This document shows, one piece after another, positions 17,028-54,540 of a stretch of 64,000 nt of DNA. Position numbers and translations under genes: made by a program. The DNA lies in contig CANJNG010000001.1 of assembly GCA_947475205.1 (NCBI GenBank), positions 679-64,678 of the forward strand. Reading direction: 5' to 3'. Each line of letters opens with the position of its first letter. Position 1 is the stretch's first letter. The notes under the pieces were generated by a model that was not told where the DNA came from, did no database searches, and was given only the letters and a program-made list of their open reading frames with translations. The DNA comes from Bacteroidota bacterium (GTDB lineage Bacteria; Bacteroidota; Bacteroidia; JAIBAJ01).

Positions 17028-17714
17028 CTAAAAAACCAAACCCAATTCTTTGATTTCGGTTTCGGCCTTTTCTTTCAAAATGCCACTGGCCATTTGATAC
17101 TTCAACACTAGTCTGTAACTGGAATAGGTAACCAAAGGGGCAATTAAAATGTCGATAGAGTAATGAACATGTTGAACTGCTAAGCAGCCCATAAGTATAA
17201 TGCTGCATATACCCGTGTAAAGCCTAAAATTGCGGGTAGAGGAAAACAAAAAAGTAATGGTAATTACTGCCGAATGTCCCGAAAAGAACAAATCGCGGCT
17301 GAGGATATTACTATTGGGAATAAGCACATTTACCATTGGGTCCACCATAGGAATATAACCTGCGGGAGGGTCTAATGGAGTTAAATAAATGGCCATACTC
17401 CTGAAAACATACATTAGCAAAAAAGTTTGCACACCAAGCACAAGCAATATAGGTTTATTTGCAAGCTGATATATAGCCATTACGAGGCATGAATATAAAA
17501 TTGTGAATACAATCCAAGATAAGTCAGCTGCAGGTATGATGTTTAGCAATGGGTCCGGAAGCACAATGCCCTGCCGTTTTTCGATATTTAAAATGAAAGA
17601 ACCATAAGTAAATAGAAACAACGTGAGTAAAGCAGTAGTGCCGATAGTTTGGCGGCGAAACTCGGGCATCGAAAGATGCGATTTCCAAATATTGCTTATT
17701 GACGAGGACGACAT
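17028..17714 (-). CDS. PAP2 (phosphatidic acid phosphatase type 2) family membrane protein
   Basis: 228-aa polytopic membrane protein. It carries PAP2 motifs 2 and 3 (SGHS...; HYSIDIL with His/Asp). Confidence 0.65.
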   Translation of the reverse strand: MSSSSISNIWKSHLSMPEFRRQTIGTTALLTLFLFTYGSFILNIEKRQGIVLPDPLLNIIPAADLSWIVFTILYSCLVMAIYQLANKPILLVLGVQTFLLMYVFRSMAIYLTPLDPPAGYIPMVDPMVNVLIPNSNILSRDLFFSGHSAVITITFLFSSTRNFRLYTGICSIILMGCLAVQHVHYSIDILIAPLVTYSSYRLVLKYQMASGILKEKAETEIKELGLVF

Positions 17715-18088
17715 TAAATACTAAACTGGCGGCAAAAGTAAAAAAATCTCGTACTCGAAAGATAACGATATTTCATTGGGGTTTTTACACCACACATGGA
17801 ATAAATCAGGGCCTTCGATTTCTACATCCAATGCCATTAAGTTAAAGAAAATGTCTGAGAAAATAGGCCGTTCATTGCGAGGTACTCGGAAGCAACCTGC
17901 GAAGCTGCTCTTGGATTCCATATAAAAACAAAATACTATTCCAAAATCTCTAACTGCATTTAGGTAGAGATTTTGGATGTAGCAATTGTTATTACCATCC
18001 AAGAGCTAAAGGTTGCTTCGGTGGAATACCACCTACCATTGACGTATTTTGCAAACACATAATTTACAATAAATTAAAAAATCATTTT

Positions 18089-18181
18089 CCTATGTGAACA
18101 TCTATGTGAACTATGTGCCTATGTCGTTCAAAAATATTAAAAACCACATAGAATCATAGAGAACATAGGGTTTCACATAGT
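18089..18181. promoter_or_regulatory. iteron-like dyad: 4 direct CTATGTG repeats plus 4 inverted CACATAG copies flanking an AT-rich spacer
   Basis: Direct CTATGTG/CTATGTC copies sit at 18090, 18102, 18111 and 18119. Inverted (CA)CATAG copies sit at 18145, 18154, 18163 and 18174. Spacing is 8-12 bp around the central TTCAAAAATATTAAAAAC. Confidence 0.45.
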
Positions 18182-18272
18182 TTTCTGTTCTAACGTCATT
18201 ACATATTGCTTTATTTGAAAAATATAGAAACTCGCAAAGACGCAACGTGAACGACGAAGTCCCCACCGAAGG

Positions 18273-18666
18273 TAATTAACGTGAGTTATGGATTAGATAT
18301 AGGAATTATCAGCCTAAATCCAGAGAATCTCCAAATGGCTTTGCCCCCGTAACCGACCACATGGAGCTCTTAGTTTCCTTAATATTCAAAACACTAAAAC
18401 TAAAAACTTCCCAGCAATAGCGGCGGACAAAGCGAAGCGTAAGCAAGTGCGATGTGGGCTTTGCCCGTCCGCGGTTTCCCCTTCGCCCCAAGGCGTTGGG
18501 GAAATTGCCTTGAACCTACCGAAGGGAGCTCACGTTTACGTAAAGTTTCCATGGTTTTTTGCTCACTTTTTGCCAAAACAAAAAGTGAGATAGGAGGAAA
18601 AATGAATTCAAGAAAAAGATAATCAACAAAATACAGGTTTTGCTAATCCATAACTCACGGTAATTA
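18273..18666. mobile_element. MITE-like non-coding element bounded by 24-bp terminal inverted repeats (23/24 identical)
   Basis: Left repeat at 18273-18296 is TAATTAACGTGAGTTATGGATTAG. The right repeat at 18643-18666 reverse-complements to TAATTACCGTGAGTTATGGATTAG. The ~350-bp interior is GC-rich, hairpin-rich and has no credible ORF. No clear target-site duplication was seen. Confidence 0.4.
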
Positions 18667-18708
18667 TGAAAAAATCTAAAGGAATACAGATAATTTCCGA
18701 GTTCTCTG

Positions 18709-18744
18709 AAACAAAAAAGAGTCTCGGTAACCACACCGAGACTC
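18709..18744 (-). terminator. rho-independent terminator of the EEP-family gene
   Basis: On the minus strand, GAGTCTCGGT-GTGGTT-ACCGAGACTC followed by TTTTTTGT. Confidence 0.7.
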
Positions 18745-18845
18745 CCAAACCCAATGAAAAATAAACGATATTTTACTATCGAAGTAGTCTAACTACGTTT
18801 TGAAACAAGGGTTTCAAAAAAATGCGTTTTAGAAATTAATTCCGA

Positions 18846-19721
18846 TTAAAAACGTACTTCGGCCTCAACTGCATAATGGTCGCTAAGGTCTTTGTGTTTT
18901 CTATGCCATGGCGATTCAAAGATGCGAACTCGTCGAATGGTTTCCAGAATAGATTTACCATTGTCACGAATCAAGATATAATCAAGCACTTTTCGATTTT
19001 TGTTATCAGGTTCTAAATCGTTATTCCCATTTATGTCCTTAGTGTAACATATATCGCCGGAAAGCAATCCGTTTTGAGCTTTACAACAGGCTAACATACG
19101 GTTTTGGGCATTGGTGTCTAAATCAGAAAGGTTAAAATCTCCACATAGTAGCTGAGGAACTCCATCCTTTTTGTTGGGAATTACAAGTTTCTCTGACAAT
19201 TCGGCCACTTGGCGAAGCTTTAGTTCTTTATCGCCTGCCGCTTGAATGTGGGTTCCCAAAACTTGTATTTTTTGGCCATTCCAATCGGTTTCTACCATCA
19301 AAGCACCTTTGCGAGCCTGACAATCGGAAAATCCATAGCATTCAGTAAATTTAATGCTGCCTAATTTGGTAATAGGGGTTTTGCTCAAAATCCATACTCC
19401 ACTACTTGTTTTGAATGAGCCCGCAATACGATTGGCAGGACCGATAGCATAAGGATAAATACTTTTCAGGCCCTTCAATATTCGGCGTCTGGCACCGCTG
19501 TGAAAGGCTTCTTGGAAAACAATCATATCATAGCTTTCCTTTGTTAACACCTCGGCTATTTTATTTGCACGCGACATTTTTCCCGTAAACTTAATGAGAG
19601 GAGGAAGCATATAAATGTTCCAGGATAGCACCTTAAACGATTGGTTTAGGTGTACAGAAGGCTGAGAATAGCTATGCTGAAAAAGAATAATAGCAATTAG
19701 GAAGAGGAAGAGGTGTTTCAT
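18846..19721 (-). CDS. secreted endonuclease/exonuclease/phosphatase (EEP) family protein, sphingomyelinase-like
   Basis: 291 aa with a signal peptide. EEP motifs are present (LSWNIY..., VFQEA, GTHI, CGDFN, SDHYAV). Confidence 0.7.
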   Translation of the reverse strand: MKHLFLFLIAIILFQHSYSQPSVHLNQSFKVLSWNIYMLPPLIKFTGKMSRANKIAEVLTKESYDMIVFQEAFHSGARRRILKGLKSIYPYAIGPANRIAGSFKTSSGVWILSKTPITKLGSIKFTECYGFSDCQARKGALMVETDWNGQKIQVLGTHIQAAGDKELKLRQVAELSEKLVIPNKKDGVPQLLCGDFNLSDLDTNAQNRMLACCKAQNGLLSGDICYTKDINGNNDLEPDNKNRKVLDYILIRDNGKSILETIRRVRIFESPWHRKHKDLSDHYAVEAEVRF

Positions 19722-25130: not shown

Positions 25131-25385
25131 ATTCTTTTTTGGAGCAGAACCTTTGGCATTTCAAGCCAACGTTTGGGTCCCGCTATCCGTTCCAAGTCCG
25201 CCAGCCCCACAAGCCAAACCCACTTCGGGCTTTCCACTCCTATCGGGGCTAAACCGAAAGGACCGTATTTCAAACTAACGGTTGCTAAAATACCCTTCGG
25301 CGGCTTTAATTACCCTTACCCTTCTACTCACCCCCTTCAATACACTTCACAAGCTTATCGTCACTATACTCACGTCAATAACTAC

Positions 25386-25595
25386 GTTTCGCATGCCCAC
25401 CTCTACCGTACTCGCGTCCATCACGATGCTTCGCACATCTAACACTACGGTACTCACGACTATCACGATGCTTCGCACGTCTATCACTACTGTACTCGCG
25501 ACTATCACGATGCTTCGCACGTCTATCACTACTGTACTCGCGTCCATAACGATGCTTCGCACATCTATCACTACTGTACTCGAGTTCAACACTAC
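25386..25595. repeat. 42-bp tandem repeat, about 5 copies (consensus CTATCACGATGCTTCGCACGTCTATCACTACTGTACTCGCGA)
   Basis: Units at 25386, 25428, 25470, 25512 and 25554 with >90% identity between the middle copies. The array sits in a 660-bp non-coding, strand-asymmetric region that is C-rich on the top strand. Confidence 0.85.
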
Positions 25596-25789
25596 GACCC
25601 TCACTTAATACATGTTTTGAAAAATAATGCCATGAATGATTAAATTCTTTAGCCTAGTAGCAAAAATACACCCATCAATTTTCCTCTAAATTAAAAGTTG
25701 TACCACAATTATTTCAAGGCATTCAAATCAAATTTATAGCCCCTAACATAACCATTCTCCCCTTCTAATTCCCCATTACCTTTGCCCCA

Positions 25790-53908: not shown

Positions 53909-54051
53909 GGAATCAACAGAATTCGAACTGACGTTAAACTAATGAAAATTATTCGATTTCCATTTCCTCCAAAAGCTTCCAACTAATTAGTTGAACGCAA
54001 CCCACGAAGTGGCTCTTTGACACAAATAAAAAATAAAGCAATAGTCCAAAA

Positions 54052-54540
54052 TCCCTAAGCCCGGAACCCTCTACGGTAAATGCTTGAGAGCATTCCCTGA
54101 TCCCCGAACCCCTTCAAGCAATTGCTTGAGAGCATTCCCTAATCCCTTAATCAGTTCAAGCAATTGCTTGAGAGCAATCCCTAAGCCCGGAACCCTCTCC
54201 GGCAAATGCTTGAGAGCAATCCCTAAGCCCGGAACCCTCTCCGGTAAATGCCTGAGAGCAATCCCTAAGCCCGGAACCCTCTCCGGCAAATGCCTGAGAG
54301 CATTCCCTAAGCCCGGAACCCTTTCCGACAAATGCCTGAGAGCATTCCCTAGGCCCGGAACCCTCTCCAGCAAATGCCTGAGAGCATTCCCTAATCCCGA
54401 AACCCTCTCCGGTAAATGCTTGAGAGCAATCCCTAAGTCCCGAACCCGTTCAAGTAAATGCTTGGAAGCATTCCCTAAGCCCCTAATCCGTTCACGCAAT
54501 TGCTTGAGAGCATTCCCTAGGTCCCGAACCCGTTCTAGCT
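54052..54540. repeat. 42-bp tandem repeat array, about 12 copies (consensus TCCCTAAGCCCGGAACCCTCTCCGGCAAATGCTTGAGAGCAA)
   Basis: Units lie head-to-tail every 42 bp from 54052, with point variants only and no intervening spacers. The last unit is degenerate. Both strands keep long open frames (152 and 164 aa) only because of the periodicity. Confidence 0.9.

What the first reader, a model, noticed from the sequence alone, without database searches (positions are those of the whole stretch)
18089..18181. Iteron-like array of four direct and four inverted CTATGTG sites around an AT-rich core
Four CTATGTG or CTATGTC repeats spaced ~8-12 bp apart are mirrored by four CACATAG copies on the other side of an 18-bp A/T spacer. 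This architecture resembles plasmid or phage origin iterons, or multi-site operators for a dimeric or tetrameric regulator. It sits in a gene-free 1.1-kb stretch between two same-strand genes, which is unusual for a compact Bacteroidota genome.
Basis: seen in the sequence. Interest (0 to 1): 0.5.

Follow-up and report, generated by a model that had tools for sequence, protein, structure and literature searches.

The report
Solo heptamer-hairpin repeat linked to GxxExxY genes
The array is real, but it is not a replication origin or an operator: it is a lone, decaying, cargo-less copy of a widespread and apparently undescribed family of intergenic hairpin repeats built from phased CTATGTG heptamers, whose intact copies in other bacteria enclose a small nuclease-like gene of unknown function (GxxExxY).

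Summary
Window 18090-18180 carries eight CTATG/CATAG cores in 91 nt, against at most four in 300 shuffles. The two arms mirror each other exactly in spacing (12/9/8 nt) around a 19-nt A/T-rich centre.

The origin or operator reading does not hold:
- There is no replication-initiator gene, DnaA box or GC-skew switch, and the neighbours are housekeeping genes.
- The 1.1-kb spacer is absent from relatives.
- The pattern has no match in 2.9 million viral contigs.

Both arms match (E about 1e-8 to 2e-9) a profile of a ~45-nt module, (CTATGTG N1-5)x3-4 followed by GTT and an A-run. I built that profile from other genomes and metagenomes. The module occurs in inverted pairs, about 96% of runs outside long ORFs, sometimes in tandem arrays or nested.

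GxxExxY genes (TIGR04256, PD-(D/E)XK-like) sit exactly in the hairpin loop in Chitinophagales-type metagenome contigs. The same layout with other heptamers occurs in Bacteroides finegoldii and Bernardetia (CACAGAG) and in Sphingomonas (CGCGAAG). The B. finegoldii records hold one gene and most of 38 array places.

The window copy has no gene, its arms are 74% complementary, and it has no sibling in 78.5 kb. It is most likely an inert relic. That the nuclease acts on the arrays is inferred, not shown.

The parts
18090..18125 (+). Left arm. One 'H module' with four heptamer units: CTATGTG at 18090, 18102 and 18111, and CTATGTC at 18119.
   Evidence: nhmmer with a profile of 65 four-unit modules from other loci (window excluded) hits 18089-18134 on the plus strand, E = 1.2e-8.
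18126..18144 (.). Centre, GTTCAAAAATATTAAAAAC. It corresponds to the 'GTT + A-run' tail that follows the last unit in the family and forms the loop of the hairpin. It is not itself palindromic.
   Evidence: Family consensus downstream of the last unit is CTATGTG-gTt-AAAAA. It resembles the centre of the tandem units in L113, TTAAAAAATATACTAAACA.
18145..18180 (-). Right arm. Inverted H module: CACATAG 18145-51, ATCATAG 18153-59, AACATAG 18162-68, CACATAG 18174-80. Unit spacing mirrors the left arm.
   Evidence: nhmmer hit at 18143-18183 on the minus strand, E = 2e-9.
18085..18089 (.). TTTTC immediately left of the array. The same 5-mer recurs immediately to the right (18181-18185). This could be a target-site duplication.
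   Evidence: Read. Other elements with the window's arrangement shown have no such duplication, so this is inconclusive.
18181..18185 (.). TTTTC immediately right of the array, the partner of 18085-18089.
18045..18061 (.). TATTTTGCAAACACATA, complementary (76%) to 18120-18136. It may be the decayed outer arm of a former element of the opposite arrangement, which would make the array the junction of two fused elements.
   Evidence: repeat I9. It is not significant with the module profile, so this is weak.
18717..18746 (-). Intrinsic-terminator-like hairpin plus T-run, about 100 nt after the stop of the upstream Exo_endo_phos gene. It places the array downstream of likely termination.
17733..17740 (-). 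TACTTTTG, which matches the Bacteroidota -7 promoter consensus TAnnTTTG, 19 nt upstream of the PAP2_C ATG (17714). It is about 350 nt from the array.
   Evidence: Read. The consensus is from established knowledge of Bacteroidota promoters.
18273..18666 (.). A separate MITE-like element in the same spacer: 24-nt terminal inverted repeats (96% complementary) around 346 nt. It is not part of the array, but it shows that the spacer collects mobile debris.
   Evidence: repeat I2. Several independent assemblies break inside it, at window positions 18314 and 18522.

Best explanation
The array is a single, cargo-less copy of a dispersed intergenic hairpin-repeat family.

The building block:
- The block, here called the H module, is about 45 nt.
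- It has three or four CTATGTG heptamers 8-12 nt apart, in a conserved order of linkers, followed by GTT(C) and an A-run.

How the blocks pair. Two modules in inverted orientation make a long interrupted hairpin, in one of two arrangements:
- Head to head: the A/T runs lie outside and a loop lies inside. This is the commoner form.
- Tail to tail: the A-runs lie in the middle. This is the window's form.

The link to a gene:
- In intact head-to-head copies the loop is filled exactly by a GxxExxY gene (TIGR04256 / PF13366, a PD-(D/E)XK nuclease-like protein of unknown function).
- Cargo-less arrays greatly outnumber the genes.
- I therefore read the family as a selfish repeat system of the REPIN/RAYT or MITE type. 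The arrays would be the cognate sites of the GxxExxY nuclease, which would bind as an oligomer to the phased heptamers and cut or resolve the hairpin or cruciform, or home into empty loops.

The window copy:
- Its arms have diverged by 26%.
- There is no GxxExxY gene and no sibling array in 78.5 kb of this genome.
- It sits between a terminator and a promoter in a lineage-specific spacer that also holds another MITE-like element.
- It is most likely an inert relic that does nothing for the flanking genes.

Shown: family membership, the association with the gene, the imbalance in copy number, nesting, and different heptamers in different gene lineages.

Inferred: that the protein binds or cuts the arrays, and that this moves them.
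For: Membership:
- The module profile, built without the window, hits both arms at E 1e-8 to 2e-9 and nothing else in the window.
- The window aligns with other tail-to-tail units (L063/L118, L065, L056, L116, L072, L113, L098).

Family:
- Four near-identical copies occur in one Saprospiraceae MAG and one in another.
- The metagenome scan gave 75 loci from many different samples, including marine and activated-sludge assemblies.
- There are 138 runs, mostly of 3-4 units, with spacing modes 8 and 10 and the tail gTtAAAAA. About 96% lie outside ORFs of at least 90 aa.
- Tandem arrays of 85-120-nt units occur in L113, L098 and L083.

Gene link:
- All 7 GxxExxY genes present in 405 kb of array-bearing loci touch an array. 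Five sit between inverted arms (four of them in the loop of one head-to-head hairpin, and L039 between two hairpins), with flank complementarity z = 15-25.
- Homologues picked only for contig length, giving two further distinct genomic loci (L135/L144; L141-143), are flanked in the same way.
- The same architecture with other heptamers occurs in B. finegoldii and Bernardetia (CACAGAG) and in Sphingomonas between fabD and fabG (CGCGAAG, z = 11).
- The B. finegoldii records hold 1 gene. The array query found 38 places in 17 records, 15 of them Bacteroides, nearly all this assembly.
- A nested element lies in the loop of another in Gemmatirosa and in L039.

Context of the window copy.
Against: - The gene at the DUF1501/AP_endonuc_2 locus sits in the same place in several related assemblies, so it is not moving often.
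- Some GxxExxY genes lack inverted arrays (Persicobacter, four viral contigs; weak in Gemmatirosa H3 and Treponema). Two are flanked by direct repeats instead (Prevotella, Fusobacteria).
- Arms within one element are no more alike than arms of different elements (0.865 against 0.863).
- No target-site duplication is seen consistently.
- In the window's own genome I found only this copy, so dispersal in that genome is not shown.
- The loci were collected by searching for the array, which biases the array-side statistic.
Confidence: 0.78

Rival explanations
1. It is an RNA-level element. The arms pair in the transcript to form a long double-stranded stem that RNase III cuts, or that blocks exonucleases. 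This would punctuate or stabilise operon mRNA, as REP elements do in E. coli and as the stems of 23S rRNA intervening sequences do. This could be the function of the family without any mobility.
For: - The hairpins are very stable as RNA (z = -7.2).
- Elements sit inside co-directional operons, such as sufB-sufC-sufD in L094, radA to the FAD-dependent protein gene in B. finegoldii, and fabD-fabG in Sphingomonas. They therefore must not terminate transcription.
- The GxxExxY start and stop codons abut the stem.
- Three stem pairs show compensatory change.
Against: - Mismatches between arms show no bias towards G-U on the sense strand: 9 sense against 11 antisense.
- The window copy lies after a good terminator and about 350 nt before the next promoter box (sequence), so it may not be transcribed.
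- The idea does not explain why the heptamers are tandemly repeated, nor the nesting.
Confidence: 0.12
2. It is a multi-site operator for a host transcription factor controlling the PAP2_C gene, or the lipid-related gene pair.
For: The sites are phased at about one helical turn with dyad symmetry. The array lies upstream of a gene on the same strand.
Against: - It is 376 nt from the ATG and about 350 nt from the -7 box.
- It is absent upstream of PAP2_C in relatives with 56-71% identical PAP2_C proteins.
- The same module lies next to unrelated genes elsewhere (ftsH, mutS2, sufC).
- No regulator gene is adjacent.
Confidence: 0.05
3. It is a replication origin with iterons, of a plasmid, a phage or an integrated element.
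For: Repeated short sites flank an A/T-rich core.
Against: - There is no Rep, integrase or phage gene, and the context is housekeeping.
- There are no DnaA boxes near it and no skew change.
- The unit size and mirror symmetry are unlike iterons.
- There were 0 hits in viral contigs, and blastn of the array itself found no similar sequence in plasmid records.
- Ten independent metagenome contigs show the same chromosomal context.
Confidence: 0.01
4. It is a local accident: slippage created a short tandem repeat that was then duplicated in inverted orientation. On this view it has no relation to sequences elsewhere.
For: Only one copy was found in 78.5 kb of this genome and none in about 55 kb of relatives.
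Against: The arms match a profile from unrelated genomes at E about 1e-8 to 2e-9. The match includes linker order (AAC after the first unit) and the GTTC plus A-run tail.
Confidence: 0.03

Closest known systems
REP / BIME elements and REPIN-RAYT systems (E. coli, Pseudomonas)
   Same: - Short intergenic repeats occur as inverted pairs that form hairpins.
- Clusters show alternating orientation with two alternating linker types, like BIME-2 (compare L113, L098, L083).
- They are tolerated inside operons.
- A single-copy gene is flanked by the repeat in inverted orientation, while dozens of gene-less copies are scattered around (B. finegoldii: 1 gene, 38 array places in 17 records, nearly all this assembly).
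- The repeat sequence differs between gene lineages.
   Different: - Each unit here is not a palindrome but a run of 3-4 direct heptamers.
- There is no GTAG or CGTC tag.
- The associated protein is a ~125-140-aa PD-(D/E)XK-like GxxExxY protein, not a Y1 HUH transposase.
- Mobility is not demonstrated.
- Copy number in the window's genome appears very low.
Bacterial MITEs with modular structure (e.g. pneumococcal BOX, Neisseria Correia elements)
   Same: These are non-coding, intergenic and hairpin-forming. They have terminal inverted repeats with a variable centre and an internally repeated sub-module, as boxB is in BOX elements.
   Different: - No parent insertion sequence with a DDE transposase is seen.
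- There is no consistent target-site duplication.
- The same half-module is used in both head-to-head and tail-to-tail arrangements.
Intervening sequences of 23S rRNA that carry an ORF (four-helix-bundle 'S23p' family)
   Same: A small ORF of a large paralogous family of unknown function fills the loop of a long stem made by inverted flanks, and is inserted into a transcribed housekeeping unit.
   Different: - The insertions here are between protein-coding genes, not in rRNA.
- The stems are built from tandem heptamers.
- RNase III processing has not been tested.
- The window copy has no ORF.
Heptad operators of the omega repressor (pSM19035) and similar ribbon-helix-helix multi-site operators
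   Same: Contiguous 7-nt units occur in direct and inverted orientation and are bound cooperatively.
   Different: - Those lie at promoters of plasmid genes and next to the repressor gene.
- Here there is no such gene, no promoter overlap and a chromosomal housekeeping context.
- The units are spaced 8-12 nt apart rather than contiguous.

Membership tests
CTATGTG heptamer-hairpin family (H module; defined here) | Three to five CTATGTG-like units in one orientation, 8-12 nt apart | tested here: met
   Each arm has four units, with spacing 12, 9, 8. In the family the commonest run is 4 units, with spacing modes 8 and 10.
CTATGTG heptamer-hairpin family (H module; defined here) | The last unit is followed by G-T-T(-C) and an A-run | tested here: met
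   CTATGTC-GTTCAAAAA at 18119-18134. The family consensus is CTATGTG-gTt-AAAAA.
CTATGTG heptamer-hairpin family (H module; defined here) | Significant match to a profile built from other members only | tested here: met
   nhmmer E = 1.2e-8 (plus arm) and 2e-9 (minus arm). The next best hit in the window is E = 0.09.
CTATGTG heptamer-hairpin family (H module; defined here) | Paired with an inverted module, and intergenic | tested here: met
   It is a tail-to-tail pair, as in 9 of 30 strictly paired elements. It lies in a 1131-nt gene-free stretch.
CTATGTG heptamer-hairpin family (H module; defined here) | A GxxExxY gene in or next to the element (present in a minority of copies) | tested here: not met
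   tblastn found no GxxExxY gene in the window or in the 14.5 kb beyond its ends. The copy is cargo-less.
REP / REPIN-RAYT | Each repeat unit is itself a 20-40-nt imperfect palindrome with a GTAG or CGTC tag | tested here: not met
   Each arm is a direct-repeat run, and only the pair is palindromic. No GTAG or CGTC lies at the ends. The defining features are taken from PMC3733652 (abstract).
REP / REPIN-RAYT | Associated Y1 HUH (RAYT) transposase gene flanked by the repeat | not tested
   The only gene seen flanked by these arrays is GxxExxY. I did not scan the loci for Y1 transposase genes, and the complete genome was not available.
REP / REPIN-RAYT | Many copies per genome | tested here: inconclusive
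   There is one copy in 78.5 kb of this genome. However, the array query found 38 places in 17 plasmid-database records, nearly all B. finegoldii, and there are at least 6 copies in four contigs of one Saprospiraceae MAG.
MITE | Terminal inverted repeats plus a target-site duplication, and a related autonomous element with a transposase | tested here: inconclusive
   Inverted arms are present. TTTTC flanks both sides of the window copy, but other copies show no duplication. No transposase-bearing parent was found; the only cargo is GxxExxY.
Iteron-type replication origin (plasmid or phage) | Direct 17-22-nt iterons next to an A/T-rich unwinding element, DnaA boxes and a rep gene, on a replicon | tested here: not met
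   The units are heptamers in mirror symmetry. There is no rep gene, no DnaA box within 40 kb and no skew shift. There were 0 viral-contig hits.
Known RNA families (Rfam 15) | Match to a curated covariance model | tested here: not met
   Only sub-threshold matches to microRNA-precursor hairpin models, for the window and for family members.

The most novel reading that the evidence does not exclude
The phased heptamer arrays are the cognate nucleic-acid sites of the GxxExxY (PF13366) proteins. This would be a selfish hairpin-repeat system analogous to REPIN-RAYT, or to homing-endonuclease genes that occupy their own symmetric site, but run by a minimal PD-(D/E)XK nuclease. It spans Bacteroidota and Alphaproteobacteria and probably Gemmatimonadota, with the heptamer co-varying with the gene lineage (CACATAG, CACAGAG, CGCGAAG). 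The window's array would be a fossil target or non-autonomous copy.
Probability: 0.35. Interest if true: 0.8.

Novelty: new variant of a known kind. Interest (0 to 1): 0.6.

Why it matters
GxxExxY proteins form a very large family. The family is annotated in thousands of genomes, including human-gut Bacteroides.

It has no known function. I found no solved structure by sequence search and almost no literature.

These genes sit precisely inside hairpins made of phased heptamer repeats, and gene-less copies of the same repeats are scattered between housekeeping genes. That gives the family a concrete, testable substrate, and it points to a possible new type of repeat/nuclease partnership alongside REP-RAYT.

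It also matters for annotation and assembly, because contigs tend to break at these arrays.

For the window itself the practical message is negative. The array is not an origin or a regulatory site and should not be annotated as one.

Tried and rejected
- **Orthologous-locus comparison.** The nearest relatives reachable either lack the spacer (L011, L013; L012 has a different neighbour) or have lost synteny (L046, L047). Conservation in place therefore could not be tested beyond showing absence.
- **Other copies in the same genome.** There are none in the window, none in 14.5 kb beyond its ends, and none in about 55 kb of relatives.
- **A larger 1-kb element.** I considered that the whole spacer is one element (16-nt inverted repeat 17768-83 / 18747-62 plus the direct repeat AACGATATTT). 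It is too weak to claim, and the right arm abuts a terminator.
- **Rfam.** I ran it at gathering and permissive thresholds on the window and on family members. Only generic hairpin noise came back.
- **Concerted evolution of arms.** Arms within one element are no more alike than arms of different elements.
- **G-U strand bias, to separate an RNA role from a DNA role.** There is none.
- **Literature.** Searches for GxxExxY, PDDEXK_3, PF13366, TIGR04256, the repeat sequences themselves, and REP or MITE in Bacteroidetes or Bacteroides found nothing describing these arrays.
- **Taxonomy.** I could resolve the window only to a poorly sampled 'Bacteroidia bacterium' MAG lineage.

Full report
**1. 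Is it there?**

Yes. On the plus strand the left arm has CTATGTG at 18090, 18102 and 18111 and CTATGTC at 18119. A 19-nt spacer, GTTCAAAAATATTAAAAAC (84% A+T), follows. The right arm has CACATAG (18145-51), ATCATAG (18153-59), AACATAG (18162-68) and CACATAG (18174-80).

Only two of the four right-hand units are full CACATAG. All four keep the CATAG core.

The arms are exact mirror images in spacing, 12, 9, 8 nt from the outside inward on both sides. The repeat finder reports 39-nt arms that are 74% complementary.

- Five of the window's twelve CTATGTG lie here, against 4.3 expected for the whole window.
- Eight CTATG/CATAG cores in 91 nt compares with a maximum of four in 300 dinucleotide-preserving shuffles.
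- The stretch folds into a four-segment interrupted hairpin. As RNA it gives -35.2 kcal/mol (z = -7.2). As DNA it gives -15.3 kcal/mol (z = -3.9).

**2. Surroundings**

The array lies in a 1131-nt gene-free stretch (17715-18845) between two minus-strand genes. One is a PAP2_C membrane protein gene (17028-17714). The other is an Exo_endo_phos (sphingomyelinase-like) gene (18846-19721). Housekeeping genes surround them: peptidyl-tRNA hydrolase, a peroxiredoxin, acyl-CoA dehydrogenase, an ABC ATPase, an NADH-dehydrogenase subunit and pyruvate kinase.

- Ten independent metagenome or MAG contigs carry the identical spacer.
- A good terminator follows the upstream gene at 18746-18717.
- A Bacteroidota -7 box, TACTTTTG, lies at 17740-17733, 19 nt before the PAP2_C ATG (read). 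The array therefore sits between a terminator and a promoter, about 350 nt from the latter.
- The same spacer holds a separate MITE-like element (18273-18666, 24-nt inverted ends) and another long hairpin (17889-18019).
- In relatives whose PAP2_C protein is 56-71% identical, an epimerase gene ends 45 nt before PAP2_C and there is no spacer.

The spacer is lineage-specific filler, not a conserved control region.

**3. Not an origin**

- No Rep, integrase or phage genes are present.
- There are no DnaA boxes within 40 kb of the array and no GC-skew change.
- The array pattern gave no hit in 2.9 million viral contigs, and blastn of the array found no similar sequence in 72,556 plasmid records.

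**4. What it belongs to**

Scanning one genome per species for two adjacent CTATGTGAAC gave 32 loci, most of them isolated matches in unrelated taxa. Among them was a repeated element in Saprospiraceae MAGs: four contigs of one MAG and one of another. Most copies lie at contig ends, and their consensus is a ~110-nt palindrome.

A metagenome scan for three units gave 75 loci from many different samples, including marine and activated-sludge assemblies. Across these loci:

- There are 138 same-orientation runs, mostly of 3-4 units, with spacing modes of 8 and 10 nt.
- The order of linkers is conserved (AAC after the first unit).
- The last unit is followed by G-T-T and an A-run. The consensus is aaatCTATGTGAACCTATGTGcCTATGttCCTATGTGgTtAAaAa.
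- About 96% of runs lie outside ORFs of at least 90 aa.

I call this ~45-nt unit the H module. Two modules pair in one of two ways:

- **Head to head** (arrays facing a loop, T-run and A-run outside): 21 of 30 strict pairs.
- **Tail to tail** (A-runs in the middle), as in the window: 9 of 30.

Tandem arrays of five to seven or more alternating units also occur (L113, L098, L083). One unit of L113 has a centre, CTATGTGttaaaaaatatactaaacaCATAG. This is very like the window's CTATGTCgttcaaaaatattaaaaaccaCATAG.

A profile HMM of 65 four-unit modules, with the window excluded, hits the window's two arms at E = 1.2e-8 and 2e-9 and nothing else in the window. The window aligns with the other tail-to-tail units. 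The consensus fold shows three base pairs with compensatory change at the GTTC/GAAC base of the stem.

**5. The gene link**

In L039, L078, L097, L094 and L061 a 136-140-aa ORF lies between inverted arrays. In four of them it fills the loop of one head-to-head hairpin. In L039 it lies between two hairpins. In several cases the start and stop codons are within a few nucleotides of the arms.

The ORF is a GxxExxY protein. It scores 118-130 bits against TIGR04256 (cut-off 35) and matches Pfam PDDEXK_3. The D...ExK catalytic signature is conserved in six of the seven aligned proteins, and L039 has ENK.

- All seven GxxExxY genes found in the 405 kb of array-bearing loci touch an array. Flank complementarity for the five with inverted arms has z = 15-25.
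- As a less biased test from the gene side, I took homologues chosen only for long contigs. These gave two further distinct genomic loci (L135/L144; L141-143), and both are flanked the same way.

In cultured organisms the same architecture appears with other heptamers:

- **B. finegoldii:** radA stop | GTTCACCA(CAGAG..)x3 - GxxExxY - (CTCTG..)x3 TGGTGAAAAAAT | ATG of the next gene.
- **Bernardetia:** the same CACAGAG type.
- **Sphingomonas:** fabD - TTTTTTCA(CGCGAAG)x3 - GxxExxY - (CTTCGCG)x3 TGAAC - fabG.

The B. finegoldii 24.8-kb record has two more gene-less hairpins. A search with one of these found 38 array places in 17 plasmid-database records. Fifteen of the records are Bacteroides, nearly all this B. 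finegoldii assembly. Those records hold one GxxExxY gene.

B. ovatus has a gene-less copy between two GDP-sugar genes. Gemmatirosa has one hairpin nested in the loop of another, and L039 shows similar nesting. In L094 the suf operon carries one gene-bearing and one empty hairpin in successive intergenic gaps.

Not every GxxExxY gene has inverted arrays:

- Persicobacter and four viral contigs have none.
- Treponema has an 11-nt inverted repeat only.
- Prevotella and a Fusobacteria plasmid have 60-70-nt direct repeats instead.

**6. How it most likely works**

Shown:
- The array is a member of this repeat family.
- The family is intergenic, hairpin-forming, multi-copy in some genomes and sometimes nested or tandem.
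- A clade of GxxExxY genes lives in its loops.
- Arrays outnumber genes.
- The heptamer differs between gene lineages while the layout is kept: T-run, CA, 3-4 heptamers, loop or gene, mirror image, A-run.

Inferred:
- The GxxExxY protein recognises the phased heptamers, probably as an oligomer on a symmetric site as other PD-(D/E)XK enzymes do.
- It cuts or resolves the hairpin or cruciform.
- This either spreads the arrays (REPIN-RAYT-like) or lets the gene home into empty loops.

I put about 0.35 on that mechanism.

An RNA-level role, as an RNase III stem or an exonuclease block within operons, is the main rival for the family. It is compatible with the operon locations. However, I found no G-U strand bias (9 sense against 11 antisense).

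The window copy has diverged arms, no gene, no sibling in 78.5 kb and a position between a terminator and a promoter. The most likely state is an inert relic. It may instead be the junction of two fused head-to-head elements whose outer arms decayed, since 18045-18061 is weakly complementary to 18120-18136. The profile does not support those outer remnants.

**7. Comparison with known systems**

The family works most like REP/BIME elements and REPIN-RAYT pairs, but it fails their defining features:

- The unit is not a palindrome.
- There is no GTAG or CGTC tag.
- The associated gene seen is not a HUH transposase.

It resembles modular MITEs, but no transposase parent or consistent target duplication is seen. 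The gene-bearing form resembles ORF-carrying 23S rRNA intervening sequences.

Rfam has no matching family. My literature searches found no description of these arrays or of GxxExxY function. I cannot exclude a description outside the held library.

**8. Verdict**

- The origin and operator interpretations are not supported.
- The array is a solo, decaying member of a family of heptamer-hairpin repeats tied to GxxExxY genes, which I did not find described.
- Novelty: a new variant of a known kind (REP/MITE-like dispersed palindromes).
- Interest is 0.6. The window copy itself is ordinary junk, but it exposes a testable substrate for a very large protein family of unknown function.

Noticed in passing
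window 18273-18666: A MITE-like element with 24-nt terminal inverted repeats (TAATTAACGTGAGTTATGGATTAG / CTAATCCATAACTCACGGTAATTA, 96% complementary) around a 346-nt, more G+C-rich interior. Several independent assemblies end inside it (window positions 18314 and 18522), which suggests it is repeated in the genome or the community.
   Followed up: partly
window 17889-18019: A long nested hairpin: three concentric inverted repeats (17889-98/18010-19, 17907-16/17997-18006, 17940-55/17962-77) just upstream of the PAP2_C promoter region. It overlaps a probably spurious 93-aa ORF. It has weak similarity (62 nt, 73%, E = 0.001) to 53997-54058, next to the 42-nt tandem array.
   Followed up: no
window 54052-54531: A tandem array of a 42-nt unit (11.4 copies, 84% matches; consensus TCCCTAAGCCCGGAACCCTCTCCGGCAAATGCTTGAGAGCAT) in an apparently non-coding gap between genes. 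Each unit contains its own short inverted repeat.
   Followed up: no
window 25172-25608: A Flavo-1 RNA (Rfam RF01705, 46.3 bits, minus strand, 25172-25254) lies directly beside another 42-nt tandem repeat (25403-25582, 4.3 copies).
   Followed up: no
window 17028-19721: The two genes flanking the spacer are a PAP2_C-type (sphingomyelin-synthase-like) membrane protein and an Exo_endo_phos (sphingomyelinase-like) secreted protein. They may form a sphingolipid or phospholipid head-group pair. In relatives PAP2_C follows an epimerase gene instead.
   Followed up: partly
L151 (Prevotella nigrescens NZ_CP082843.1) and L154 (Fusobacteria plasmid CP102406.1): GxxExxY genes here are flanked by 60-70-nt direct repeats (z about 17) rather than inverted arrays. 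In Prevotella the repeats contain ACAAATNG units. This suggests a different cassette-like mode for the same gene family.
   Followed up: partly
L133 (Gemmatirosa kalamazoonensis NZ_CP007129.1, 1083035-1084868): In a G+C-rich stretch of this Gemmatimonadota plasmid, an A/T-flanked CACAGAG hairpin of the Bacteroides type is nested inside the loop of a G+C-adapted hairpin of the same design. This hints at insertion into existing loops or at lateral transfer.
   Followed up: partly
L010 (k141 contig) versus window 18104: One metagenome contig ends inside the left arm of the array itself. Family copies in Saprospiraceae MAGs also sit at contig ends. These hairpins seem to break short-read assemblies.
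   Followed up: no
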